Of a DNA stretch of 64,000 bases, positions 6,771-20,714 are shown in pieces. Source of the stretch: the human T2T-CHM13v2.0 reference genome, Homo sapiens. The stretch's first letter is position 1. Every line of letters begins with the position of its first letter. Made by a program: the position numbers and the translations under genes. Below the pieces are notes generated by a model that worked only from the letters and a program-made list of their open reading frames with translations, was not told the origin of the DNA and made no database searches. Location of the stretch: the NCBI RefSeq assembly GCF_009914755.1, contig NC_060945.1; one strand, 5' to 3'.

Positions 6771-7579
6771 AAGTGGCTATTCTTTTGTGGTGGTGGTACG
6801 TAGCTGCATTGCTCCCAGGGGTGGAGAGGGAGGAATTTAAAGGTGGTGTTTCTCTCCTTCTCCCTGGTATCTGACAGCATGCCTTGGGATTTATGTAACA
6901 TCTCATTCATAGACTAGAGCAGGTCAAGCATTGGCCCCTGAATTCAGGGTCTACCTGTGCTGGAGAAGAGGTGGGGGGTTAGTGGGCACTGACTCTTGCC
7001 CCAACCCCACACTGGGTACAGCAGGAACGGGGTGGTGGTCCTCCTTGCTGGTGAGTGAGGTCCCTCTCCAGGTGACCTGAGGCTCCTATGACTGACTGTG
7101 AGCCTCTGCCTGTCCTTGAGTCCCTTGCTGTGTGTCATGGATCCCTCCTCTGGGTCACCCTGTTTGCCCAGCCTTGGTGAGACACTGGGGTTCATTGTAT
7201 GTTAAGGTAACAGATACTACCCGGACAATAGGGCATACCTGTGAGGCAGGTGGGCAGCCTGGCACCCCTTCTGTAATTTCCCTGGGTATAAACATGTTTC
7301 TGGTGGAACCTGAGGAAGAGAGTGTCACCTCTTCTGGGTGACTTTCCTGGCCTGGCTCCCCTTCATCCTCTCTTGGCCTAGATGTACTAATTTGATATTT
7401 GACTATTGCTACTCAATACAAAAAAAAGTGGTCACTTTTTTGCTCTTAGAATTCTCAAAAGAAGAGAGAATACTCTGGGAGTGCTGACATTAACCACATA
7501 AAGGAAATGAAATGAGTGTGTTTGTTTTGTGCTAATGCTTGCTGTCCAGCCCAGGCCCCGGGTGGGATGTTTTCAGATT

Positions 7580-7585
7580 TTTATT
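7580..7585 (-). terminator. Candidate distal polyadenylation signal (AATAAA) for PLAC4
   Basis: The + strand reads TTTATT, i.e. AATAAA on the - strand, downstream of the PLAC4 ORF. The position fits my recollection of the annotated 3' end, but other AATAAA hexamers exist. Confidence 0.5.
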
Positions 7586-7876
7586 ATATGGCAATCATAT
7601 ACCTGCACCTAGAAATATACAACCTCGGCGCTGCCATTGCAGGAAGACAAAGAGACTGTCTAGAGAGTAACGTGGCGATGCCCTGGGCAGCTCCATCATT
7701 CCAGGGTACCATAAAGGGAAGTGGGAATGCACACTCCATCTGTTTCACGCTAGGCTGAAAGTGGCAGGGGGAGAATTTACACCTGGCCTGCAAAAGGCAG
7801 CCTTGTGTTCCCACTTCAGAGCCCCAACTTCTCCAAAGCCAGTGCTTGGGAAATGGCCTTGTTGGCAGCAGGCAGG

Positions 7877-7950
7877 AGACTGGTGCAGTGTGCCAGCTGT
7901 GCAAACCCCCACCAGACTGGTGCAGTGTGCCAGCTGTGCAAACCCCCACC
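7877..7950 (+). repeat. Perfect 37-bp tandem duplication
   Basis: AGACTGGTGCAGTGTGCCAGCTGTGCAAACCCCCACC at 7877-7913 and 7914-7950. Confidence 0.95.
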
Positions 7951-10271
7951 AGCAGCACCCCCACCAGCAGCCAAAGAAAACAATTTCTAAAGCAGCCCCC
8001 AGGATTTCATGCCACGGGGGTGGTGAGGGGTAGGAGGAGGTGGAAAGCATTGAATCAGAAAGTCTTCCAGGTACCAGCAATGCCAGGGTTAATATGGTCT
8101 GGCTTGCTTTTCAGGTGAGCACCTGTAGCTGGCAGGAAAGTGGCTTCTTGGTGGAGGTGGGCATGAATTCCAGAAGCCTTGGAGAGACATCCAGAGCCCT
8201 TCCCACTACATCGTGCTGCCTCCTGGGGAAATTCCTAAGCTTTTTTTGAATCAGAAAAGCCACTGACAAGCAGACAGAATTGTGTGGCTTGCGCAGTGAT
8301 TGGAGAGCTAGGTGCTTTGGGTACTAGTCCCAGAGCTGCTACTTGTCGAATGTTGGGTATTGGAGAGAAGTCATTTGAGCTGTCTGAGCCTCTGTTTCCT
8401 CATCTGTAAATCAGGGAATTTGAACAAGTGACCTCAGATTCCTTCTAGAAGCTCTAACAGTCAATGATATCATCTATTTCATTTGAGAGAATCTCCATAG
8501 CTCTAATTTTTTGCCCCCAGACCAATCTGCTTCAGCTTTGTGTGGGTGCAACACCTGGGGTCCTGTTAAAATGCAGAATCGGATTCAGTGACCGAGAGCA
8601 GAGCTGAGGGTGGCTGCTGCCAGCTCACAGGTCACACTTGGAGTCGTTGCTTCTTTCCCCAAACCAGCTGCCGATGGTTCCTGGAAAGAGCAGGAATACC
8701 TTGCAGAAGGGCCTAGAAATAGAGATTCCCATATGCAGTCCAGACTTATTGGGTGAGCCTGTCTGCACTAGGACCTGAGAATCTGCATTTTATTATATCC
8801 CTTGAGTCCCCTTTAAGCAGCCACGCTGGCCCCAGCCATTGGACTCTATTTGGAGGCCACTGCAGAGGCCAGATGCCCCTCTGCTCGGCGGTTTCCTGTG
8901 CAGAAAGGCTGTGTTCTTTCTTCTTCCTAAATACTCTTCCTAGGTTAAGTGTTTCCTTCTCTTTGCCCATCTAGAAAATCTCCACCTCAAGCAGGTCGTG
9001 TTCCAAAAACTCCTCGTGTTGGGCAAGTGGAAAACACGCAGTTTTTTCTAGGGGTCTCATTCTGAGGCGGTGCTGCTGAAAATCTTGGTGCTGAACGTGT
9101 GTTTTTGAGATTTCCAGTCTATCACGGGGCCACAAGGTGTAAATATCAAGAAAAATGAATTACTAGAAAGGCAAAGTGAAAAAGACATACAAAATACAAG
9201 TGTCATTCTTTTTATTCTTAGTTTGGACAGATACTCCATTCTTCTACACTGGTCCCACGGTTTCTGAAGCTTCCTGTAATGATCAGTGGTTACCTTGTTG
9301 CCCAAGTAACTGCAAATCCCTCCTCTACAAAGTGTGCTTGCTCCAAGGCAGTGCAAACTAGAAGTTGTTACAAATGGTTCCAGTAACAAATTTGTTTGGC
9401 GGCCTTTTCCCATGAATGAGACAGTGGTTATTTTTGCTAAAGCAGAAAGGAAATGTGATACTATTGGGCTGTGTTTTGCCCTCTGGAGTAATCCTGCTTG
9501 GGGAAAATGGAGGCTTGTTCCAGAATGCAGAAATCCCTGTTAAATTAGGCAGTCTTGGGCTGGAGGACGTGTGCCTGCCTCCCCAGTGCCTCACAACTCA
9601 CATCTCTAAAGGCCACTCAGGTGGGACACCATCAAGACATTGAAAATCGACAGAAGGAAGGCAGGAAGGGGAGAGGATCGAACCTGTCAAAATAGATATT
9701 CAGAAAATCTGTGCTCTAAAATAAGGCAGCCCTTCCCTCACAGCACACTTATTCCTAATTTCAACAGGACTCCTAGTCTTGCCCCACAGCGTCACAGCCT
9801 ACAGCAAATTAGAAACTGGGGTGGGGGGCGGATATTATTCCACCAGTAATACCCTTGGGACGGGGCACACAAGATGTTTGCCCTCCTACCTCTCTGTCAC
9901 CTTCCCAAGAAAGGGTCAAGATGAAACAGTGTGCGTTTATGGTATTGCGAGAGTTAAGTGAGCTGCGGTGTATTAGAACCTTAGCCTCGCGCAGCGTCAG
10001 CCGTGTGGTAAGTGTTCCATAAATCTTCGTTTAGAAAAAGTGGCAAATTCCAGGCTGCTAGTAAACAAAGGAGGGAAGACAGACAAAACGGAACAGCAAC
10101 AACAGAAAACCCAAGAACTAGATGCCCAACAATCTGGGTCTGTATCTTGAAGGAATGTGCATCCTGTCCTCTGACTGCAAACCCAGGCCTTCTGTGGCCC
10201 CACGATGCTGCCTCCTAGCCCTCCTAAGGTGGGAATGGAGCTTTACCCCTTGGTGGCAAACAGACCTGGCT

Positions 10272-10488
10272 CCATGGATCTCAACCTGGGGTGATTGTGT
10301 CCCCACCCCAGGGGACATCTGGCATCCTCTGGGGACATTTTGAGTTCTCACAACTTAGAGGGTGCTACTGGCGTCCTGTGGGTGGAGACTGGAAGTGCTG
10401 CTCGGCATTCTTTGCCGTACAGGGCAGCCCCCACAACAAAGAACGATCTGGTCCAAAATGGCAACCATGCCAAGATTGAGAAATCCTG
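10272..10488 (+). mobile_element. MER20 (hAT-Charlie DNA transposon)
   Basis: TCTCAACCTGGGGTGATT...CCCCAGGGGACAT.TGGCA...GGGTGCTACTGGCGTCC...CAGCCCCCACAACAAAGAA...TTGAGAAATCCTG matches the MER20 consensus layout. Confidence 0.8.
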
Positions 10489-10784
10489 GTTACTCGACAC
10501 AGCAGGTCGGCTGGCCTAGGAGTTGCTGCCCAGAGAGGCAAAGGGAGAATGTCCAGTGGAAACAGCTGCCCTGAGCATACAGGGCACGCTGACACCTGCT
10601 GATTCCCCCATCCTTAAGGTCCTGTATTGTTCCTAACACCACGTGGATCTTCTTGCCAGATGCATTAAAGTGTGAGAAGAGTTAAAAATCACTTATAACT
10701 GGAGTGACTGGGGGTTAAAGAGGAGAAAAAATTTGAACCTGACTCAAAGGATGAGCATGTTTTTCTTTCTTTCTTCGGCACATT

Positions 10785-11072
10785 GGCTGGGTGTGGCGGC
10801 TCCATGGCTATAATCCCAGCACTTTGGAAGGCCGAGGTGGGAGGATTGCTTGAGGTTAGGAGTTCAAGATCAGCCTAGGCAACATAGCAAGTCCCTATCT
10901 ATATAATTTTTTTTTTAAATTAGCCAAGCTTGGTGGTGCATGCCTGTAGTCCCAGCTACTCAGGAGGCTGAGGCAGGAGGATCACTTGAGCTCAGGAGTT
11001 CAAGGCTGCAATGAATTACGATTGTGCCACTGCACTCCAGCATGTGCAACAGAGCAAGACCTTGCCTCAAAA
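10785..11072 (+). mobile_element. AluJ
   Basis: Diverged Alu with J-type GAGGATTGCTTGAG and GGAGTTCAAGGCTGCA. Confidence 0.9.
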
Positions 11073-11074
11073 CA

Positions 11075-11395
11075 TATTAAGCACCTACTGCATGTCAGGG
11101 CCTTGGTCTAAGCCCTGGTATGCAACAGTCAACTAGACAGAGAGAGTCTTGGCTTTTACAGAACCTCCCCTTATAAGGAAGACAGATTGTCAAGGAAGTA
11201 AACAGACTTTTAGAGGAGTGCTGTGAGACAGTGCCATGTGGGAAGGGGTATTGGTGAAAGAATCCTGCTTTATAAGGGCGGTTATGGAAGACCTCTCTGA
11301 GGAGGTGCAATTTGAGATGAGATTGGCTTGAGGAGGACTGAGCCTTCAGAAGTTAGGGAAAGCGTGTCCCAGGCTGCAGCCAGGGAGGTGAAGAC
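11075..11395. mobile_element. L2 LINE fragment
   Basis: ATTAAGCACCTACTGCATGTCAGG...GGAAGACCTCTCTGAGGAGGTG resembles the L2 3' end. Confidence 0.55.
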
Positions 11396-11396
11396 T

Positions 11397-11906
11397 TGAG
11401 GGTGTCAGGGTGAGGAGTGAGGGTGTCAGGGTGACTGAGGGTGCCAGGGTGAGGAGTGAGGGTGTCAGGGTGAGGAGTGAGGGTGTCCAGGGTGAGGAGT
11501 GAGGGTGTCAGGGTGAGGAGTGAGGGTGTCCAGGTTGAGTGAGGGTGTCCAGGATGAGGAGTGAGGGTGTCCAGGGTGAGGAGTGAGGGAGTCCAGGGTG
11601 AGGAGTGAGGGAGTCCAGGGTGAGGATTGAGGGTGTCAGGGTGAGTGAGAGTGTCCAGGGTGAGGAGTGAGGGTATCCAGGGTGAGTGAGGGTGTCCAGG
11701 GTGAGGAGTGAGGGTATCCAGGGTGAGTGAGGGTGTCCAGGGTGAGTGAGGGTGTCAGGGTGAGTGAACGTGTCCAGGGTGAGTGAGGGTGTCCAGGGTG
11801 CAGAGTGAGGTGTCCAGGGTGAGGAGTGACGGTGTCTGGGGTGAGTGAGGGTGTCCAGGGTGAGGAGTGAGGGTGTCAGGGTGAGTGAGGGTGTCCAGGG
11901 TGAGTG
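11397..11906. repeat. G-rich minisatellite/VNTR, ~18-22-bp units (GGGTGAG[GA]GTGAGGGTGTC[C]A)
   Basis: More than 20 imperfect tandem units are directly visible. Confidence 0.95.
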
Positions 11907-11960
11907 CACATGTGTGGTGAGGAGGTGTTTGCAGTGCTTCAGGCGCAGCAACTCTTTCAT
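11508..11960 (-). CDS. PLAC4: Putative PLAC4 150-aa ORF (low-complexity translation of the VNTR; probably non-coding)
   Basis: The ORF MKELLRLKHCKHLLTTHVHSPWTPSLTLTPSLLTLDTLTHP... matches the historically annotated PLAC4 protein. All but the first ~18 codons lie in the tandem repeat. Confidence 0.55.
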   Translation of the reverse strand: MKELLRLKHCKHLLTTHVHSPWTPSLTLTPSLLTLDTLTHPRHRHSSPWTPHSAPWTPSLTLDTFTHPDTLTHPGHPHSPWIPSLLTLDTLTHPGYPHSSPWTLSLTLTPSILTLDSLTPHPGLPHSSPWTPSLLILDTLTQPGHPHSSP

Positions 11961-12134
11961 CTAGTTTAAAATTGTGCTCTGAGGTTAGATTTTAGTAGAA
12001 CAAAGGCCTTACAAAGAATGTGAAAACATTGTGCTTCCCTGCTTACAGGCAATTAAAAAGGAGAATCAAGCTGAGGGTGCCTGGTGTGGGGTGGGGTGGA
12101 GAAGACCACAGAGACTATTGTGTGTTTTATTCAA

Positions 12135-12215
12135 CAGTGTCCTGGGCTGCTTTCTCCAGAAATGTCCCTGACACATGGATGTAAGTGTGGCTAGTTTACT
12201 GGGAGATGATCCCAG
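12135..12215. mobile_element. Old MaLR LTR (MLT1I/J-like), left part, interrupted by the provirus
   Basis: TGTCCTGGGCTGCTTTCTCCAGAAAT...TAGTTTACTGGGAGATGATCCCAG. The element continues at 19416 (CCAGGA...TGTGGGCCACTGAGACCCACTCCCCACTGGGGAACTCTGAGAG). Confidence 0.6.
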
Positions 12216-12661
12216 TGATGCAGGACAGGCGAGCCCTAAGATTGAAGCATAGCCCGGGAGGGTTCTTAGCTTTGCCCAGGAAGGAACTCAAGGGCAAGCC
12301 AGTGGTGTTAGCAACTTTTATTGAAGCGGCCGGCTGTGCACAGCAGCAGCAGAGGCGCTGCTCCTTGCAAAGCAGGGCTGCCCTACAGGCTGTGCGCCCA
12401 CAGTAGCAGCTCAGAGGCAGTTCTGCAGTGGTATTTGTATCCACTTTTAATTATATGCAAATGAAGGGGCAGTTTATGCAGACATTTCCAGGGTGAGGGT
12501 GGTAACTTCTGGGTGCTGCCAGAGCCATGGTGAACTGACTTGACACAGGTCGGTGTGTCCTATGGAAACTAGCATCTGCCCTGGACCTATTTTAGCTAGT
12601 GCTCAGTTTGGTCTGAGTGCCTGAGCCCCACTTCCAGAGTTGAGTCCCACCTCCTACCTCA
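12216..12661 (-). mobile_element. 3' LTR (MER66A-like)
   Basis: Homologous to 18933-19415. The - strand begins TGAGGTAGGAGGTGGGACTCAACTC. It has AATAAA at 12317-12322 and is preceded by the polypurine tract AAGGGGGAA (12662-12670). Confidence 0.9.
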
Positions 12662-12779
12662 TTCCCCCTTCAGAGATTAGATACTCCTCCTTAATCTTAA
12701 GGGGGCTGCAGAAGGGCGGAGATCTGTTTTCCGTAACTACTTCCTGCTGAGTTTATGGACGTAGGCCCTGCCTGGCACT

Positions 12780-14322
12780 GGAGGAGTAAAAATCTCTGGA
12801 TACCTGATCTAAGGAGCCCAGAGGCAGGACGATTTCATTCTCCGTGTCAGTGGACAGGATGGGCTGGAAGCCTTGTGCCAGCATTGTCTCTGGAACTGTG
12901 GTAATCTAGAATACACAAACTTTACTAAGAGGTTAAAGAAGCAAGGACCAAACATTTGTAACAAGACAGTTGTCAAAGGTCCTAGAAGAGGTGAAAAACA
13001 GGTGAGACTTGGGAAGGCACTTTTGATGGTTGACCAGATATAGTTGGGGGCAGTGCCCTGGTTATATCTATGTAACTAGGTAGCTTGCTCATAGATCTTT
13101 TGAATGTTAACCTCAACCTGTCCAGAGTTAATATATGTGCAGCAGGTTTTATTAATAACTGCACAAGACCCCACCTTGTTCAGCTAGTAAATAATCCAAT
13201 GCTAGTCTGTTATCAACAACTACATTTTCCAGAGTCTGGGGAACTCTTGAATTCTCTTTAATGCCTGATCTCCGTTGGTGGCTAAGGATTCTAGGATTTG
13301 AGCCAAGTTCTTTAGCGTTAACTCATGGTAGGCAAAGCCACCCCAGGGTGCTGCTAGTCCTATTGCCACCCTGATTCCTGCCAGAATTAGTTTTATTGCT
13401 TACTTATTTCTGATATTCTTGGGTCCTAGGCGTTATAGATTGTGACCCCTGGAGGGGTAAGAGTGGCCAACGTTCATTCATGTCAGTTCCAAGTTTTTTA
13501 GATACAAGGGAAAGCTATTCCTTAAAGAAGAGGTGACTCCTTAGGGAGTTGGAGTGGTTACAGGGTGTGACTTCTTCCCATTCATAGTCACAAACAAAAA
13601 TGAACCCAACTAGGGCACCAAGAGAAGCCCTGCGGGGTGCGATGTTTATACTTCATTGCCAGGTTGGGTCTATAGAGATATTTTCCACCTGTTCTCATGG
13701 TGGTGGTTGAACAATCTTTGTTTTCTAGAAGAAGGTAGTACTGTCACCTTCCCAGATCAGGCAGTTGTTTTTCCTTTGTATGTTCCCATCCGGGAGAAGG
13801 TACCATATATGGTCTTTTCACTCACAAATGGAATCTCATTTACCTCCCCGTGGTCTTGGAAACTTGGCAACTAGAGTTGGACCAGAGCATCGCAGGGAAG
13901 CTTCCACTTTTGTGTCATTAATGCAAGAGTGGATGCAAATGTTAGAGTTATGAGTGCACTGGAGATATAGATGCCCAACTTCCCAGATTCCGATAATAGT
14001 GGTCAGGGCAGGGGGACAGCAGGGTCCAGGGGGGATCCACTAAGTGGGGAAGAGTTCCACTTCACAATAGGGGTTTGGGTATTTTGGGGTGCTATGGTTA
14101 GTTAGGAGGTCTGGGGACATGGTCCTGAGATTTTCCAGATAGGTCGGAAGATGAAACTGTCTATCCTGGGGGTGTTGATGACAAATCTGGCAGCCATAAA
14201 GATGATTCTATGATGCTATAATTTTTGAAATATTTACTGTAGAATTTTGTCCACCCTCCCTGTCCACATACACACTAGCTTAGGTTAATTAGAAGAGCAA
14301 ACAGAATTAACAGTGGCATCAT
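12780..14322 (-). pseudogene. Decayed env, ERVV-1/ERVV-2 (HERV-V)-like
   Basis: Manual translation gives: signal peptide MMPLLILFALLINLS; NSTVNISKIIAS*NHLYGCQICH (CXXC at 14181-14192); furin site RNK*; fusion peptide AIKLILAGIRVAIGLAAPWGGFAYHELTLKNL; ISD NVVVDNRLALDYLLAEQGGV; CAVINKTCC; and the TM tail FGPCFFNLLVKFVYSRL. There are several stops and frameshifts. Confidence 0.9.
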
Positions 14323-14472
14323 GGTATCTGGTTGGGTCTTAGAGTAGCTTCTATACCCAACAAGCCCACAGGAGATGTTTCCCAGGAGGAGGTGGCTGGT
14401 TAAAGCCATAGAAAGGAAGTACTACAGTCAGGAAGAAGAGCAAGATCAATGCTCCTATTCCCATCTACAGCA

Positions 14473-14700
14473 TTACATTACCTCTTCTGGCTGAGTGTTG
14501 ATTATTTTAAATAGGTAGCAGAGGTCTTCCAAAGCTTTACTGATATTGGTTGTGGTTGTAGTGCCCTTCCTTTGTGCCTGTGACTCATAAGAAACAGGTT
14601 TAGTCCTGGATCTGTGTGCCCAAGTAGGTGTTCCCTGAAGTTTAACAGCAGTGGGGGTACTTAACAATACCTGATAAGGCCCCTTCCATTTCATTGTAAT
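14473..14700 (-). pseudogene. Integrase C-terminal remnant (GPY/F motif)
   Basis: ORF KWKGPYQVLLSTPTAVKLQGTPTWAHRSRTKP is a typical gammaretrovirus-like integrase C-terminus. Confidence 0.85.
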
Positions 14701-16149
14701 TGATTCTTGGGGTATCCCTGTCTTTACCCTGTCTTTAAGGTTTTAGCAAGACTAAGTCTCCTGGTTGAACCGGGGAGCTATTTTTTCCTTTGTGGGGAAG
14801 GACAGTATTTTATTTTTATATTGGAGGGCCTTTTGAACCTGTCCTAAATTCTAAAGGGGAGGGGGGAAGGTTCATATAGGTAATTACTACAAGCCAAGAC
14901 CACAGCAGCTCAACACATAAAATCCATAGACAAATCAGTTTTACAACCCCATTTCCTGGCTTCTAGTTCTTGGCTTCCATACTGCTCAAAAGGAGTTCAA
15001 GGGCCAATGAGTGCCCGCCCACCTCCACACTCATGCACTGTGCAGATGACTTACACAGACCATCTACAACATAGCTGAATTTCCTGACATGTTCTATACT
15101 ACCTCTTTCTTAAAGTTATTTTACTCTAGGATAGGGAATTTACTATACAGGATTCCTCCACATATAAAATTACTCTTTCTTTATATCCTTCCTTGCAAAA
15201 CAAACAAAAAATACATTTTCTATTCATAATATTCTTTACATCTCTCTTTTCTACTCACTGGTTCACTCATGTTTTGAACCTCCCATTTAGTAACTTCCGG
15301 ATTAGACAAAAAATTTTTTCTCAATAAAGAATACATTTCTTTAGCACATTTTATGGAAACCTAGGAAGGAAGAAGTCATGAACTTCACACTAGACATTGT
15401 CATTCTATAACTGAGAACCATTCTACCATTTTATGATTTTAAACCACACATTAAGCATATCCCATTTACGTGTATTTAATTATTTCACTTTTAACTTTAT
15501 CTAGATCACCGAGAACCAAGGTACCATGCAAAGCTGGTCACCATTTAAAGCCATTTTAACCATTTTAAAGCCTATGAACATCAGTGACTTACCTAGGTAA
15601 AAATCCTAAAGTTAAATTTTAGAAGATACAAGATTCTCTTCAAACTAATAAGCTTTCAGTAGTCTTATTTGTTGAATGTATGAGTGTTCTTTTATCTATA
15701 AGCCAGTTTGACAGCACGCTAGATGTAACACACATCACAATACATGTACATATACCCAAAAACATATTAAATAAAATGACCTATACAAGACAACTGGATT
15801 CAAGTTATTTACAGAACTGGGACCCATCTACCTGGCCAAATTTTGTTTGCCCCGATAGGTATGGAAAACAGGAAAAGGCAGGACAGGGAATCCCATAGCA
15901 TCAACTAAAAAGGGGAGGAAGCAAACTGCATTGCTCAAAAGGAGATTCTGGAGTCCCCACGCCACTGGAGAGCACACTCAGTGGTGGAAATACCAAAGAA
16001 AAATGTTCAGGCGGCTGCTTATCTGCCACTGTGGAAAGCTGTCCTCTGGGACAGTAAACTTACTTGAGCTAAGCAGCTCACTGGGGCTAGTAGGAGAAGG
16101 TTAGCTCTAGTATTGATGGAAGCTTTTTGTTGTTATTGTTCTCTCTCAC

Positions 16150-17427
16150 CAGAGCAGTTAGGACATTTGCATTGCCAGGGGCCCTTTTGCGTATAGTAGG
16201 CGCAGTGATTCTGGCCCAGGGGTCAGCAAGTCAGGCATCAAGTCTTGTCTAGGCATCCCAGATGCTAATTTTGTAACATTTTCTCAAGATGAGTAATCCT
16301 GAGGGGCAAGGAGGCTTAAAGTCACTGTTAACAATTGTACTTTTTGGCTATTTCTTTTTACTCCCCTCTTTTGCCCTGTCCCTGTTGTTGTAAACTTTAA
16401 AGGCTATGTTTAAGCGTCGTTTCATAGGACTTGAAGGTCCCATTGCTGCTTTTTGTAGATTCCTCCTAATGTCAGGAGAAGATTGAATGAGAAAATGTAT
16501 ACCCAGGAGAGCTTGCCCTTCTGGGGTGTCTGGGCCTGCATTAGTATATTTCCTGAGTGCTTCAACTAAAAGACCCTGAAACAGAGCGGGATTTTCATCT
16601 TTTCCCCGAGTTACTTCTTTAACCTTGTCATAATTGACTGGCTTAACCACACACTTTTTCCTCTACTTTTTTTTCCCCACAGCACAGCAAGCGGATGACA
16701 ATATTTGTAAATCGTGGCAATTTGAAGAACATAGTCAACGTAACAAACTCTTGTATAAGCTTTTCTGGTTTATCTGAAAACTGGCCAATTCTTTCCTTTT
16801 ATAAGGTCTAATTAGACATGGAAAGTGGCATATGTACTCTTTGAGTGTTCCCTCATTTCCATCAACTACTTTCCACAGTGGACACAGGCTTGACCTTAGG
16901 GGCTGATATGGAGCCCCACTCCTGGTGTACTGGTTGGGCTCATTTTCTTGGGCAGCAGAGGGTATAGGCTAGGGCTAGTTGGATAAGGGGGAAAGGTGCC
17001 TGATGATATTGGGGTGGAATCTCATTAGGGAATTGGCGAGAACCCCCACTCAGGACTGGGGGACTGAAGAGACTCTGGGGAGGCTTATGAACTTTCTATG
17101 GGGAGCAGCTAGGTGGGGATCCCTTATGCATGGCATTCTAATGCCTGGAAGTAACGTGATCCAGTATAGAGCCATAAAAGCCTGTACATAAGGGATCTCT
17201 TCCCATTTTCCTTCTCTTTTACAAAATAAGCCTAATCGTAAAATATCACTATAGTATATAGAACCATGTTTAGGCCAGATATATTCGTCATCTAACTTGT
17301 ATTTAACCCAAATGGTGTTGCAATACAAAATGAGTTTCTTTTTCTTTAAGCCAAATTTGAATTTGCTCCAATAGCTTAAAAGACACCCTAGCGGCGAGTC
17401 CCTTGGGATACTCCTTGTTGTCCCCAT
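16150..17427 (-). pseudogene. Disrupted gag (matrix, capsid/MHR, degenerate zinc knuckle)
   Basis: Matrix MGTTRSIPRDSPLGCLL...YCNTIW...WEEIPYVQAFMAL (17050-17427); capsid KPVNYDKVKEVTRGKDENPALF...FLIQSSPDIRRNLQK (16348-16650); NC-like LGQNHCAYYTQKGPWQCKCP near 16155-16220. Confidence 0.9.
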
Positions 17428-18911
17428 GCCTATATTAAGGATCTCTCTACAGAGGGTTTTATTAGCCCAAGTTTAGCAAAAGCCTAGTTACTCTTCCCTC
17501 TTAAATTCCCGTGTTCTTTAAAGGTGTAAATATAGATAGCAAGGTGTTATAAAAATGGATTATGAGCTACGAATGGGCAGTCGAATGTGGAGCCTAAATT
17601 CCATAGAGATCTAGAGTTGGGTGGAGAGGGGGCTAAACAAATGGAGGAAGGGAAAGGGGTAAACAGCGTTGCCCAAGGGGAGACCTCAGAGGCTCTGACT
17701 TGCTGAAGAACCTACCCAGTAGTGGAGATACTGAAAAAAATATTGGGCTGGCCACTTGTCTACCACTGTAGGTGGCTGACTGCCAGGCCAGGAGCCTGGG
17801 AGCTCCCAATTCCTTTGACCAAGAGCAGCTTAGGCAAGGGAGTTATAAGACAGTACACAGGAAGGAGCTTGCAATTGGCTATTAGGAAAATAATACTCCT
17901 AACTTCAGGGTGGAAAAAGACAAGACCAATATTCGCCTAGCGAAAGGGGTATAACCCACAATCCTAGAGGAAATGTCAGTGCTAAAAACCCCAGAGCATC
18001 TGGAGGGTGGCCTATAATACCGATGCTGAGAACCCAAAATGCCTGCGTTTCAGCCAACAAGGATGCCCTCGCCAAAGCAGCTGTGCACAGCAGTGCCAAA
18101 AACCCTGGGGTACCCAGTGGGCGGCCAACCCCGTGAACCCAAGACCAGGTTACAGAACATAGAACAACGTGACAACGTGACTCTGGTATCCCAGAGTCAA
18201 CACAACAGGGGACCTCTCACAACCAAGTGTCCTGCCTTAAACAATTGCCCAAATACAATTAACAGAAAGTCGAAAGCAAACATAAGACTCCAAACAAGAC
18301 ATACATGTTAGGACTGAAAATGAAACCAAAGTGGAGCAATAAAATGGAGTCAGAGGAGAAAGAACCAGGTGAAGGGGTGGCAAGAATGTGCTTCAAGGCA
18401 CCTAAACCGTGGGGAACTGACCGCTTAGCCAAAGGCTTTTATTTCCTAGCTTACCTGATATTACTGGGGGAGGGTGCAAAGGGGACTCTCACCCATCCAC
18501 AGAAGACAAAATGGCACCAGCCAGTCTTCCACGTGGGACCCGGGTGCAGGTCTCTCTAGGTTCCCCAGCTTGGGGGTGCTCAGCTTCTGTGTCGGGGGCT
18601 GGCTCGTTAGAGCAGTGGGTCCCACACGAGGCAGCTGTACTATGGACACTTGGCTGTCCACTCAGTTTCACCACCTGCCAGGGAAAGATGATGGCTGTGA
18701 AAAGAGGCACTGGTTAGGGTTAGAGCTCGGTAGTGTTAGCAGCTCTTTATTGGTACTTCCTCAGTGTTACAGATCTTACATCCTCAATCACAGACTGCTT
18801 CACCGTCTCTTGCTGTCTTGCCAACTGCTGTCTCTTGTCTCTCACCAATTGCTGCCTCTCTGTCTCTGCTGTCTTGCCTCTCTGCCAATTGCCACCATCT
18901 CCGCTGTCCTT

Positions 18912-18930
18912 GTCCCTTTGCTGGTTGCCA
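18912..18930 (-). other. Primer-binding site, tRNA-Arg-like
   Basis: The - strand reads TGGCAACCAGCAAAGGGAC, starting 2 nt after the 5' LTR. It resembles the ERV9-type Arg PBS TGGCGACCACGAAGGGAC. Confidence 0.7.
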
Positions 18931-18932
18931 GA

Positions 18933-19415
18933 TGATGCAGGACAGGCAAGCCCCAAGACTGGGGCTTAGCCTGGGAGAGTTCTTGGATTTGCCCAAAGAT
19001 TCAAGGGTGAGCTGGTGGTGTTAGGCAGCAGCTTTCATGGAAGCAGCTGTGCACAGCAGCGCCAGAGATGCCGCTCCTTGCAGATCAGGGCTGCTCCATA
19101 GGCTGTGTGCCCTGAGTAGCAGCTCAGAGGCAGTTCTGCAGTCATATTTATACCTACCTTTAACTATATGCAAATTAATGGGCGGTGTATGCAGATACTT
19201 CTAGGATGAGGGTGGTAACCTTAGGGCCATTGGGTCATTGCCATGGAAAGGGGTGGTAACTTCTGGGTGTTGCCATGGAAACGGTAAACCGACATGGCAT
19301 GCTGGTGGGTGTGTCCTATGGAAAACTGCATCTGCCCTGACCTGTTTTAGCTAGTGCTCAGTTTGGTCCTATGTCCAAGCCTTGCCTCTGGAATCAAGTC
19401 CCGCCTCCTGCCTCA
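18933..19415 (-). promoter_or_regulatory. 5' LTR (MER66A-like), candidate PLAC4 promoter
   Basis: The - strand begins TGAGGCAGGAGGCGGGACTTG. TATAAATA is at 19145-19152 (-) and an octamer ATGCAAAT at 19168-19175. It is followed by the PBS. Confidence 0.85.
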
Positions 19416-20714
19416 CCAGGAGTCGCAGGTAAGAGTGTGTGTCATGGAGGAGGTTATAAATGTGGGCCACTGAGACCCACTCCCCACTGGGGAACTCTGA
19501 GAGGTGACATCAGATAGATTCAGCTGTGCTGACTAGGGGGCAAGGCAGCTGGGCCTTATCACTCCCTCCTGCCAACCGTGGGTGGAGGGCAGCTCACAGG
19601 GGGTTCACTCTTCAGCGTTTCTGGCTCAATAGCTGGCCAAAGAAGCCATCTGCAGAGAGTCACAGGTGCTTGCATTAGAGGCTGTAGAGTCAAGTGCCCA
19701 GGAAGGGTGTGGCTGGCAGTTTGCTGTGGCTACTGTGTGCCTAGAACAACCACTGTGTGCTAGAACCATGGCTGGCACAAGTTAGGATGATATTTGAGGA
19801 ATGAAAGATCGAATATGTTCTACCACTGCACGTATTTGAGAGCATTATTTTGGCCCAGGAATCACAAAACAGAGTTTTAAAACTGTTCTTTAAAATCCTA
19901 ACCTGCTAGCAGGCTCTAGACTCTAACTCATGAAAGCCTCTGTGAGTTTGGAGTGTGCCTGTCATTGCTGTGTAGTTCCTTGAACTTTTATTGGAAGGTG
20001 AAGATGTGATGTGTAGATACTGAGCAAGAGAAAATGGTTGGGGGGCAAAGGGTGATCGTGTTTGAGGTTATAAACAACCACAAAACCGCCTTTGAGAGTT
20101 GAGTGCTCTGAACGTTAAGAGCTTGCAAACCCTTTAGAATGGCTGGGCTTTGTATGGTTGACTGGCAGCACAACAAAGTTGCAAGCAAGTGTTAAATTCC
20201 TGACCCACTACCACTTCCATGTAATCCATCAGGAAGTTTACCAAAGTATAGCTCCCACAGCTTTTGTATATATAAGAATTTACTACGTAGTAGTTCCTTT
20301 ATATTCTGTATAACGTCAGTTCTTAAGTACACACACATTTTAAAAGTACGTAATATTGTTATCATCCTTCCATTAGTCAATATACGTACATTTTGGTTTA
20401 ACCCTGTAGTCCAGGGGCAACTTCTATGATCCCTCCTTCTTGCTTTTTGCACCCAAATAGGAGAGAAGGCAGTGTCATTCAGAATGGTCGGGCTGCAGGC
20501 ACCTGTGGGCCGTGTTTATAGAGAGTGGAATCACTCTGTGCCCAGCAGAACCCACGTCTTCCCCTCCATGTCAGAGCTGGTGCTTCACTTGGGGCCTGCT
20601 CATCTCTGTATCCATGGACATATGCCTCATTGCCTGGGTTTATGAATCATGAGGCTAAGTAGAGAATTGAAAACAACTCCCAATATTTGTGTTCAGGCCT
20701 AGGGAGAGGCAGGG

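What the first reader, a model, noticed from the sequence alone, without database searches (positions are those of the whole stretch)
12216..19415. PLAC4 looks like a co-opted provirus: the two LTRs have complementary promoter and terminator lesions
Seen: the 5' LTR has an intact TATAAATA (19145-19152, - strand), but its poly(A) hexamer reads ATGAAA (19033-19038). At the homologous positions the 3' LTR has a broken TATA (TACAAATA, 12432-12439) and an intact AATAAA (12317-12322). Both LTRs keep an ATGCAAAT octamer. Established: LTRs are identical at insertion, and PLAC4 is a placenta-enriched antisense RNA in BACE2 intron 1. Inference: each LTR lost the signal it would not need in a working transcription unit. 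This suggests the provirus is the PLAC4 unit (TSS near 19120), with a short form ending near 12300 and read-through to ~7563. Two substitutions could also be chance.
Basis: partly seen in the sequence, partly recalled or inferred. Interest (0 to 1): 0.8.

Follow-up and report, generated by a model that had tools for sequence, protein, structure and literature searches.

The report
PLAC4 provirus: LTR lesions look neutral
PLAC4 does sit inside an old endogenous retrovirus, which is already published, and the matching promoter and poly(A) defects in its two LTRs are real but are what ordinary decay of this repeat family produces.

Summary
The element is a true class I (gamma-like) provirus on the minus strand, with paired LTRs, a CTGG target-site duplication, a PBS-like site, a polypurine tract and gag, pol and env remnants in order.

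Its only long open frame, 125 aa at 17050-17427, is the PLAC4 protein Q8NAM4. PLAC4 as a co-opted gag (matrix) gene under purifying selection is already in print (PMC12679747, 2025; PMC2008291, 2007).

Among 50 other copies of the family, TATAAA survives in 31 and AATAAA in 21. The 5' LTR state (TATA kept, poly(A) signal lost) is the commonest (19 of 50), and the 3' LTR state occurs in 9 of 50. The expected joint frequency is about 0.07. One of four other complete proviruses of the family shows the same complementary pattern. A relative-rate test shows no significant constraint on the 5' LTR (31 versus 41 derived changes, p 0.29).

RefSeq starts PLAC4 at 17571, outside the 5' LTR, and runs it through the 3' LTR to a host poly(A) site at 7563. 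A TSS in the 5' LTR remains possible but untested. Verdict: known biology plus a pattern within chance.

The parts
18933..19415 (-). 5' LTR (483 nt), with TG...CA ends. U3 is about 19123-19415. It holds TATAAATA (19145-19152), the octamer read as ATTTGCAT (19168-19175) and the degenerate poly(A) hexamer CATGAA (19034-19039). It also holds a two-unit direct repeat in U3 (about 19215-19285).
19416..19419 (-). Target-site duplication CTGG, upstream copy
   Evidence: read directly
18912..18930 (-). PBS-like site starting TGG, 2 nt after the 5' LTR. The tRNA type was not determined here; a resemblance to a CpG-decayed tRNA-Arg site is recalled only.
17428..18932 (-). Long leader of 1505 nt. It is normal internal sequence of this ERV family, not a nested insertion. 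It contains 11 upstream ATGs counted from a TSS at 19122, and AATAAA hexamers starting at 18751, 18443 and 17463. The RefSeq PLAC4 5' end (17571) lies inside it.
17050..17427 (-). gag matrix ORF of 125 aa (end coordinate includes the stop). It starts MG, in the context GGCATGG. This is the PLAC4 protein Q8NAM4.
   Evidence: peptide DSPLGCLLSYWSK and length 125 in Table S1 of PMC12679747; the only copy in the genome open over residues 1-125
16351..16662 (-). gag capsid remnant (Pfam Gag_p30, E 1.5e-14), no longer joined to the matrix frame
14476..14742 (-). pol remnant: MLV-type integrase C-terminal domain (MLVIN_C, E 8e-10). Only about 1.6 kb lies between the capsid remnant and this one, so most of pol is missing or unrecognisable.
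12812..13322 (-). Weak env (TLV_coat) remnants, E 0.03, below the Pfam cut-off
12662..12670 (-). Polypurine tract AAGGGGGAA, directly before the 3' LTR
   Evidence: read directly
12216..12661 (-). 3' LTR (446 nt). It holds TACAAATA (12432-12439), the octamer, and AATAAA (12317-12322). It lacks a 41-nt U3 repeat unit that is present in the 5' LTR and in 39 of 50 family copies. It overlaps the RefSeq 'enhancer' 12047-12856.
   Evidence: hub annotation
12212..12215 (-). Target-site duplication CTGG, downstream copy
   Evidence: read directly
7563..12211 (-). Host (BACE2 intron 1, antisense) part of the RefSeq PLAC4 RNA. AATAAA at 7580-7585 sits 17 nt before the annotated 3' end at 7563.
   Evidence: hub annotation

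Best explanation
The region 12216-19415 (minus strand) is a single old class I (gammaretrovirus-like) endogenous provirus. It integrated antisense in BACE2 intron 1. LTR divergence of K2P 0.214 puts the insertion near 49 million years ago, assuming a recalled neutral rate of 2.2e-9 per site per year.

Everything in the provirus has decayed except the 125-aa gag matrix ORF, which is the published PLAC4 protein. PLAC4 RNA is a proviral-sense transcript. As annotated, it reads through the 3' LTR and ends at a host poly(A) site.

The TATA loss in the 3' LTR and the poly(A)-hexamer loss in the 5' LTR are real, derived changes. They are of the kind and frequency that neutral decay gives in this LTR family. 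They carry no significant information about co-option or about which promoter is used.

Shown here: the anatomy, the polarity of the lesions, the chance expectation, and the lack of rate asymmetry.

Inferred, not shown: the promoter. I put about 45% on a major TSS in the 5' LTR, which keeps TATA and octamer. The rest goes mostly to a start in the leader near the annotated 17571.
For: Anatomy:
- LTR pair, CTGG duplication, PBS-like site and polypurine tract.
- Gag_p30 remnant (E 1.5e-14) and MLVIN_C remnant (E 8e-10), in order on the minus strand.
- The leader is family-typical. Other proviruses match up to positions 74-1489 of its 1505 nt.

ORF:
- 125 aa, identical in length to Q8NAM4 and containing its peptide.
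- Of the 9 closest genomic relatives (E below 1e-38), 8 carry stops. None but PLAC4 is open over residues 1-125.

Neutrality of the lesions:
- 50 unique family copies gave a joint expectation of 0.068; divergence alone gives 0.0625.
- The 5' LTR state is the commonest single state, 19 of 50.
- Control provirus L060 has a 5' LTR with TATAAATA plus AGTAAA and a 3' LTR with CATCAATA plus AATAAA. That is 1 of the 4 pairs with two full LTRs, out of 8 proviruses fetched.
- Relative-rate counts, using 50 outgroup copies one at a time: 31 versus 41 overall (p 0.29), 16 versus 25 in U3, 15 versus 15 in R-U5.

Literature: PMC12679747 (section 15 and passages read) reports insertion in the simian ancestor and dN/dS 0.272.
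Against: - The 5' U3 has fewer derived changes than the 3' U3 (16 versus 25). 44 of 50 outgroups give d5 < d3, but these are not independent tests.
- The 3' LTR also lost a 41-nt U3 repeat unit. That makes three promoter-side lesions in the 3' LTR and none of these in the 5' LTR.
- The 5' LTR keeps a CpG-containing CCGCCC 30 nt upstream of TATA that only 1 of 50 copies keeps. It also has a CCAAT that only 2 of 50 have (a post hoc look).
- The 50 copies are the best-scoring hits to the two PLAC4 LTRs, not a random sample of the family.
- The paired control has only 4 complete pairs.
- No primate alignments or expression data could be consulted.
Confidence: 0.7

Rival explanations
1. The whole provirus is the selected PLAC4 transcription unit. 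The 5' LTR is the trophoblast promoter (TSS about 19120). Its R-region poly(A) signal was purged to prevent premature termination. The 3' LTR supplies a poly(A) site (about 12300) for a short isoform, and its now-useless promoter decayed.
For: - Intact TATAAATA and octamer in the 5' LTR, and an intact AATAAA in the 3' LTR.
- Both lesions are derived.
- The 3' LTR has an extra 41-nt U3 deletion.
- U3 derived changes are 16 versus 25.
- The 5' LTR has a rare retained CCGCCC and a CCAAT.
- From recall, other placental ERV genes such as ERVW-1 use their 5' LTR as promoter.
- The annotated 5' end at 17571 has no TATA upstream and could be a truncated cDNA end.
Against: - The pattern is expected at about 0.07 by chance and is seen in 1 of 4 control proviruses.
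- No rate asymmetry is significant.
- The RefSeq TSS is outside the LTR, and the RefSeq RNA reads through the 3' LTR to 7563 (hub annotation).
- Three further AATAAA hexamers lie in the leader.
- The LTR-initiated 5' UTR would be 1695 nt with 11 upstream ATGs. The annotated 5' UTR is 144 nt with none, and has a strong start context.
Confidence: 0.15
2. Leader-promoter model. The main PLAC4 TSS is where RefSeq puts it, near 17571 inside the proviral leader. This gives a short mRNA leader free of upstream ATGs, suited to translating the matrix ORF. The 5' LTR is at most an upstream enhancer, and both LTR lesions are irrelevant.
For: - The hub annotation gives a single exon, 7563-17571.
- The 144-nt 5' UTR has no upstream ATG and the context GGCATGG.
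- Peptide evidence for the ORF (PMC12679747 Table S1) fits an efficiently translated mRNA.
- PMC13361550 (passages read) treats PLAC4 as a gene with a transposable element at its TSS, and reports low promoter methylation in placenta. This is compatible with either promoter. Its table of amplicon positions is an image and could not be read.
Against: - There is no TATA and no CpG island upstream of 17571 (CpG observed/expected 0.24).
- None of the trophoblast-factor motifs I scanned for occur there; only CCAAT matches were found.
- 5' ends of very long unspliced cDNAs are often truncated.
Confidence: 0.4

Closest known systems
ERVFRD-2 / gagV1 and LOC107986768 (placenta-expressed co-opted ERV gag ORFs, PMC12679747)
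   Same: These are gamma-like ERV gag genes kept open in simians or apes and expressed in placenta, with an N-terminal MG myristoylation motif. PLAC4 matrix matches a 522-aa open frame at C19:56091916 at 47% identity over residues 1-108 (E 2.7e-25). From its position and length I take that frame to be ERVFRD-2.
   Different: PLAC4 keeps only the matrix domain (125 aa); the capsid is a broken remnant. It belongs to a different LTR family, which I could not name because no Dfam or RepeatMasker library was available.
ERVW-1 (syncytin-1) type locus: a provirus whose 5' LTR is the placental promoter and whose 3' LTR supplies the poly(A) site (recalled)
   Same: A full provirus with both LTRs, a retained viral ORF, and syncytiotrophoblast expression.
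   Different: The retained gene is gag, not env. The annotated RNA neither starts in the 5' LTR nor ends in the 3' LTR. Use of the LTR as promoter was not shown here.
Ordinary decayed proviruses of the same LTR family (L060, L062, L063, L064)
   Same: The architecture, the LTR-LTR identity (76-84% against 82% here) and the kinds of TATA and poly(A) lesions are the same. L060 has the identical complementary arrangement.
   Different: In the protein search, none of the close copies keeps the matrix frame open over its whole length.

Membership tests
Class I (gammaretrovirus-like) endogenous provirus | Two LTRs in direct orientation with TG...CA ends, from a single integration (identical short target-site duplication) | tested here: met
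   LTRs at 18933-19415 and 12216-12661 are 81.9% identical. CTGG flanks both ends.
Class I (gammaretrovirus-like) endogenous provirus | PBS after the 5' LTR and a polypurine tract before the 3' LTR | tested here: met
   A TGG-initiated site at 18912-18930 and AAGGGGGAA at 12662-12670. The tRNA type was not determined.
Class I (gammaretrovirus-like) endogenous provirus | gag-pol-env remnants in order, of gamma type | tested here: met
   Gag_p30 E 1.5e-14; MLVIN_C E 8e-10; TLV_coat only E 0.03, below cut-off. The matrix ORF itself has no Pfam hit.
Domesticated (co-opted) ERV gene | An open reading frame kept where paralogous copies are broken | tested here: met
   The 125-aa ORF is open. 8 of the 9 closest genomic copies have stops, and none is open over residues 1-125.
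Domesticated (co-opted) ERV gene | Purifying selection across species, and a protein product | not testable with these tools
   No primate genomes were held here. Published values: dN/dS 0.272, q 6.39e-7, and 3 discriminating peptides (PMC12679747, section 15 and Table 2 read; Table S1 row seen).
LTR-driven transcription unit (5' LTR promoter, 3' LTR terminator) | TSS in R of the 5' LTR | not testable with these tools
   No expression data were available. The annotated 5' end, 17571, lies outside the LTR (hub annotation). TATA and octamer are intact.
LTR-driven transcription unit (5' LTR promoter, 3' LTR terminator) | Cleavage and polyadenylation at the R/U5 border of the 3' LTR | not testable with these tools
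   AATAAA is intact at 12317-12322. The only annotated 3' end is 7563, behind a host AATAAA.
LTR-driven transcription unit (5' LTR promoter, 3' LTR terminator) | Sequence constraint on the 5' LTR promoter relative to the 3' LTR | tested here: inconclusive
   Derived changes are 31 versus 41 (p 0.29) and 16 versus 25 in U3.

The most novel reading that the evidence does not exclude
The 5' LTR is the trophoblast promoter of PLAC4. Selection after co-option removed the promoter-proximal poly(A) signal in the 5' R, while the redundant promoter of the 3' LTR decayed through the TATA change and the 41-nt U3 deletion. 'Complementary LTR decay' would then be a sequence-only signature of proviruses that are used as whole transcription units.
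Probability: 0.12. Interest if true: 0.45.

Novelty: already known. Interest (0 to 1): 0.2.

Why it matters
PLAC4 is a widely used placental RNA marker and is now a candidate protein-coding gene. Knowing that it is the matrix remnant of a roughly 49-million-year-old provirus is useful, but it has been published.

The added idea is that complementary LTR lesions mark a co-opted transcription unit. That would be a handy sequence-only test if it held. Here it does not rise above the family's neutral background. The result is mainly a caution against reading function into single motif differences between LTRs that are 18% diverged.

The promoter question, 5' LTR against leader, stays open and could be settled cheaply with existing placental CAGE or long-read data.

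Tried and rejected
- **Literature on the PLAC4 TSS:**
  - I ran six full-text searches: PLAC4 with LTR, endogenous retrovirus, transcription start site, HERV, and BACE2+promoter, plus PLAC4 alone.
  - None of the papers whose PLAC4 passages I read reports a mapped TSS, 5' RACE or 3'-end data.
  - I read passages in PMC12679747, PMC13361550, PMC2008291, PMC2690655, bioRxiv 10.1101/2024.07.02.601748 and PMC13149032. Only the 40 best of the 163 papers were listed.
  - The supplement of PMC13361550 holds its locus tables as images, which give no text.
- **Nested insertion in the leader:** I considered a nested LTR or other insertion supplying the annotated TSS and rejected it. The 1505-nt leader matches other proviruses of the family along its length.
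- **Pfam on the matrix ORF:** no family.
- **Trophoblast and cAMP motif scan:**
  - I scanned for CRE, GCM1, TFAP2, GATA, TEAD, AP-1 and DLX3, using consensus strings recalled from memory.
  - The regions were both U3s and the 500 nt upstream of 17571 and of the 5' LTR.
  - Nothing distinguished the candidate promoters.
- **Family name:** By matrix similarity it is related to the very abundant gag family that gave hundreds of hits at 50-56% identity. My guess from recall is HERV-H-like.
- **Primate comparison:** not possible, because no primate genomes are held.
Full report
**1. The observation**

On the minus strand the 5' LTR reads TATAAATA at 19145-19152 and ATGAAA at 19033-19038. The 3' LTR reads TACAAATA at 12432-12439 and AATAAA at 12317-12322. 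Both LTRs carry the octamer, seen as ATTTGCAT when read on the minus strand. So the sequence statements are correct.

A global alignment of the two LTRs shows that the true homologue of the 3' AATAAA is CATGAA at 19034-19039. The alignment also shows a 41-nt stretch of U3 that the 5' LTR has and the 3' LTR lacks.

**2. What the element is**

- **LTRs.** They are 18933-19415 (483 nt) and 12216-12661 (446 nt). Both begin TG and end CA, and they are flanked by the same 4-bp duplication, CTGG (19416-19419 and 12212-12215). They therefore derive from one integration event, and the premise that they were identical at insertion holds.
- **Priming sites.** A TGG-initiated PBS-like site follows the 5' LTR (18912-18930). 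A polypurine tract, AAGGGGGAA, precedes the 3' LTR (12662-12670).
- **Coding remnants.** Stop-to-stop fragments of the minus strand gave Gag_p30 at 16351-16662 (E 1.5e-14). They also gave the MLV-type integrase C-terminal domain at 14476-14742 (E 8e-10) and weak env matches at 12812-13322 (E 0.03, below cut-off). This was from 33 fragments scanned. The order is gag-pol-env, and most of pol is missing.
- **Age.** The LTRs align over 436 columns with 79 mismatches (59 transitions, 20 transversions), giving 81.9% identity and K2P 0.214. At a recalled neutral rate of 2.2e-9 per site per year this is about 49 million years. That agrees with the published statement that PLAC4 entered the genome in the simian ancestor (PMC12679747, section 15 read).

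**3. The ORF, and what is already known**

The only long ATG-initiated frame on the minus strand is 17050-17427. It is 125 aa, starts MG, and sits in the context GGCATGG. It contains the peptide DSPLGCLLSYWSK and has the length listed for Q8NAM4 (PLAC4) in Table S1 of PMC12679747.

That paper (Nov 2025) describes PLAC4 as a co-opted retroviral gag ORF that keeps only the matrix domain. It reports the ORF as conserved across simians with dN/dS 0.272. PMC2008291 (2007, passage read) already listed PLAC4 as a placental gene whose product contains a gag domain.

Searching the genome with the protein (150 of 2307 candidates scored) showed PLAC4 as the only copy open over residues 1-125. Of the 9 closest relatives (E below 1e-38, 61-68% identity), 8 have stops inside the match. 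A 522-aa open frame on C19 matched at 47% identity and is probably ERVFRD-2/gagV1. So the headline 'PLAC4 is a co-opted provirus' is correct but not new.

**4. Polarity of the two lesions**

The genome holds well over a thousand candidate copies of this LTR family (1147 and 1328 first-look candidates, 40 scored each). I took the 58 loci returned. I dropped the two PLAC4 LTRs themselves and six duplicates, which left 50 unique copies. I aligned each copy singly to the 5' LTR.

| Site | Kept in the 50 copies |
|---|---|
| TATAAATA | 25 |
| TATAAA | 31 |
| AATAAA | 21 (6 more read AATTAA followed by A, i.e. a shifted ATTAAA) |
| Octamer | 36 |

The 41-nt U3 segment is present (35 or more of its 41 positions) in 39 of 50 copies, so its absence from the 3' LTR is a derived deletion.

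**5. Is the complementary arrangement more than chance?**

| Joint state in the 50 copies | Count | Matches |
|---|---|---|
| TATA kept, poly(A) signal lost | 19 | PLAC4 5' LTR (the commonest state) |
| Both kept | 12 | |
| Both lost | 10 | |
| TATA lost, poly(A) signal kept | 9 | PLAC4 3' LTR |

- The product of the two relevant frequencies is 0.068. A calculation from per-lineage divergence alone gives 0.0625.
- As a matched control I fetched 8 other proviruses of the family, chosen from the best leader matches.
- Four of them had two full LTRs within the 10 kb fetched, with LTR-LTR identities of 76-84%.
- One of these four, L060, has exactly the same arrangement: 5' TATAAATA with AGTAAA, and 3' CATCAATA with AATAAA.
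Given all this, the pattern is within chance.

**6. Is the 5' LTR constrained?**

I used each of the 50 copies singly as an outgroup. The median number of differences derived in the 5' LTR is 31, against 41 in the 3' LTR (binomial p 0.29). In U3 it is 16 against 25, and in R-U5 it is 15 against 15. The direction holds both in the set found with the 3' LTR query and in the set found with the 5' LTR query.

Two post hoc observations point the same way. The 5' LTR keeps a CpG-containing CCGCCC that 1 of 50 copies keeps, and it has a CCAAT that 2 of 50 have.

**7. The transcription unit**

- **Annotated ends.** The hub's RefSeq model is a single exon, 7563-17571. Its 5' end lies 1.36 kb downstream of the end of the 5' LTR, in the leader. 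Its 3' end lies 4.65 kb beyond the 3' LTR, 17 nt after a host AATAAA at 7580-7585.
- **The leader.** It is normal family sequence, not an insertion.
- **LTR start versus annotated start.** An unspliced RNA from a TSS at about 19122 would have a 1695-nt 5' UTR with 11 upstream ATGs. It would also meet AATAAA hexamers starting at 18751, 18443 and 17463. The annotated 5' UTR is 144 nt with no upstream ATG.
- **Weakness of the annotated start.** There is no TATA or CpG island upstream of 17571, and cDNA 5' ends of 10-kb RNAs are often truncated.
- **Literature.** None of the papers whose PLAC4 passages I read reports a mapped PLAC4 TSS or 3' end (searches; only the 40 best of 163 papers were listed).
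- **Conclusion.** The promoter is unresolved. I put about 45% on the 5' LTR.

**8. Verdict**

The anatomy and the motif calls are right, and the polarity is right. The biological headline is already published. The inference that each LTR lost the signal it did not need is not supported beyond chance. Interest is low. The open question worth a quick look in existing data is where PLAC4 RNA actually starts and ends.

Noticed in passing
window 11387-11906: A G-rich (plus strand) minisatellite with units of about 19-22 nt and more than 20 copies. It lies about 300 nt beyond the 3' LTR, inside the annotated PLAC4 RNA and next to the RefSeq 'enhancer' 12047-12856.
   Followed up: no
window 18075-18098 and 19041-19064: A 24-nt direct repeat (96% identity) between the proviral leader and the R region of the 5' LTR, just upstream of the poly(A) hexamer position. 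It contains a 12-nt palindrome (GCTGTGCACAGC) that is also present in the 3' LTR. By eye, the leader near 18720-18760 also resembles the LTR's poly(A)/U5 stretch.
   Followed up: partly
L060 (G000:C18:28670885-28680884): Another provirus of the same family, with LTRs 75.7% identical, shows the same complementary TATA and poly(A) lesions as PLAC4. I did not check whether it is transcribed or annotated.
   Followed up: partly
window 19180-19185 and 19229-19233 (minus strand): The 5' LTR keeps a CpG-containing CCGCCC about 30 nt upstream of the TATA box; 1 of 50 family copies keeps it, and most read its CpG-decay products. The 5' LTR also has a CCAAT that only 2 of 50 copies have. The CCAAT lies in the 41-nt unit missing from the 3' LTR. 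This was a post hoc look and is not significant on its own.
   Followed up: partly
PMC12679747, section 15: [quoted passage not shown] The window (chr21, BACE2 intron 1) and the title of the paper's own reference 62 (21q22.3) show this is a slip.
   Followed up: yes
genome-wide: The PLAC4 matrix protein matches hundreds of loci at 50-56% identity over residues 2-91, many with open frames of 200-450 aa. The first look gave 2307 candidates. This is presumably the gag of a much more abundant related ERV family.
   Followed up: no
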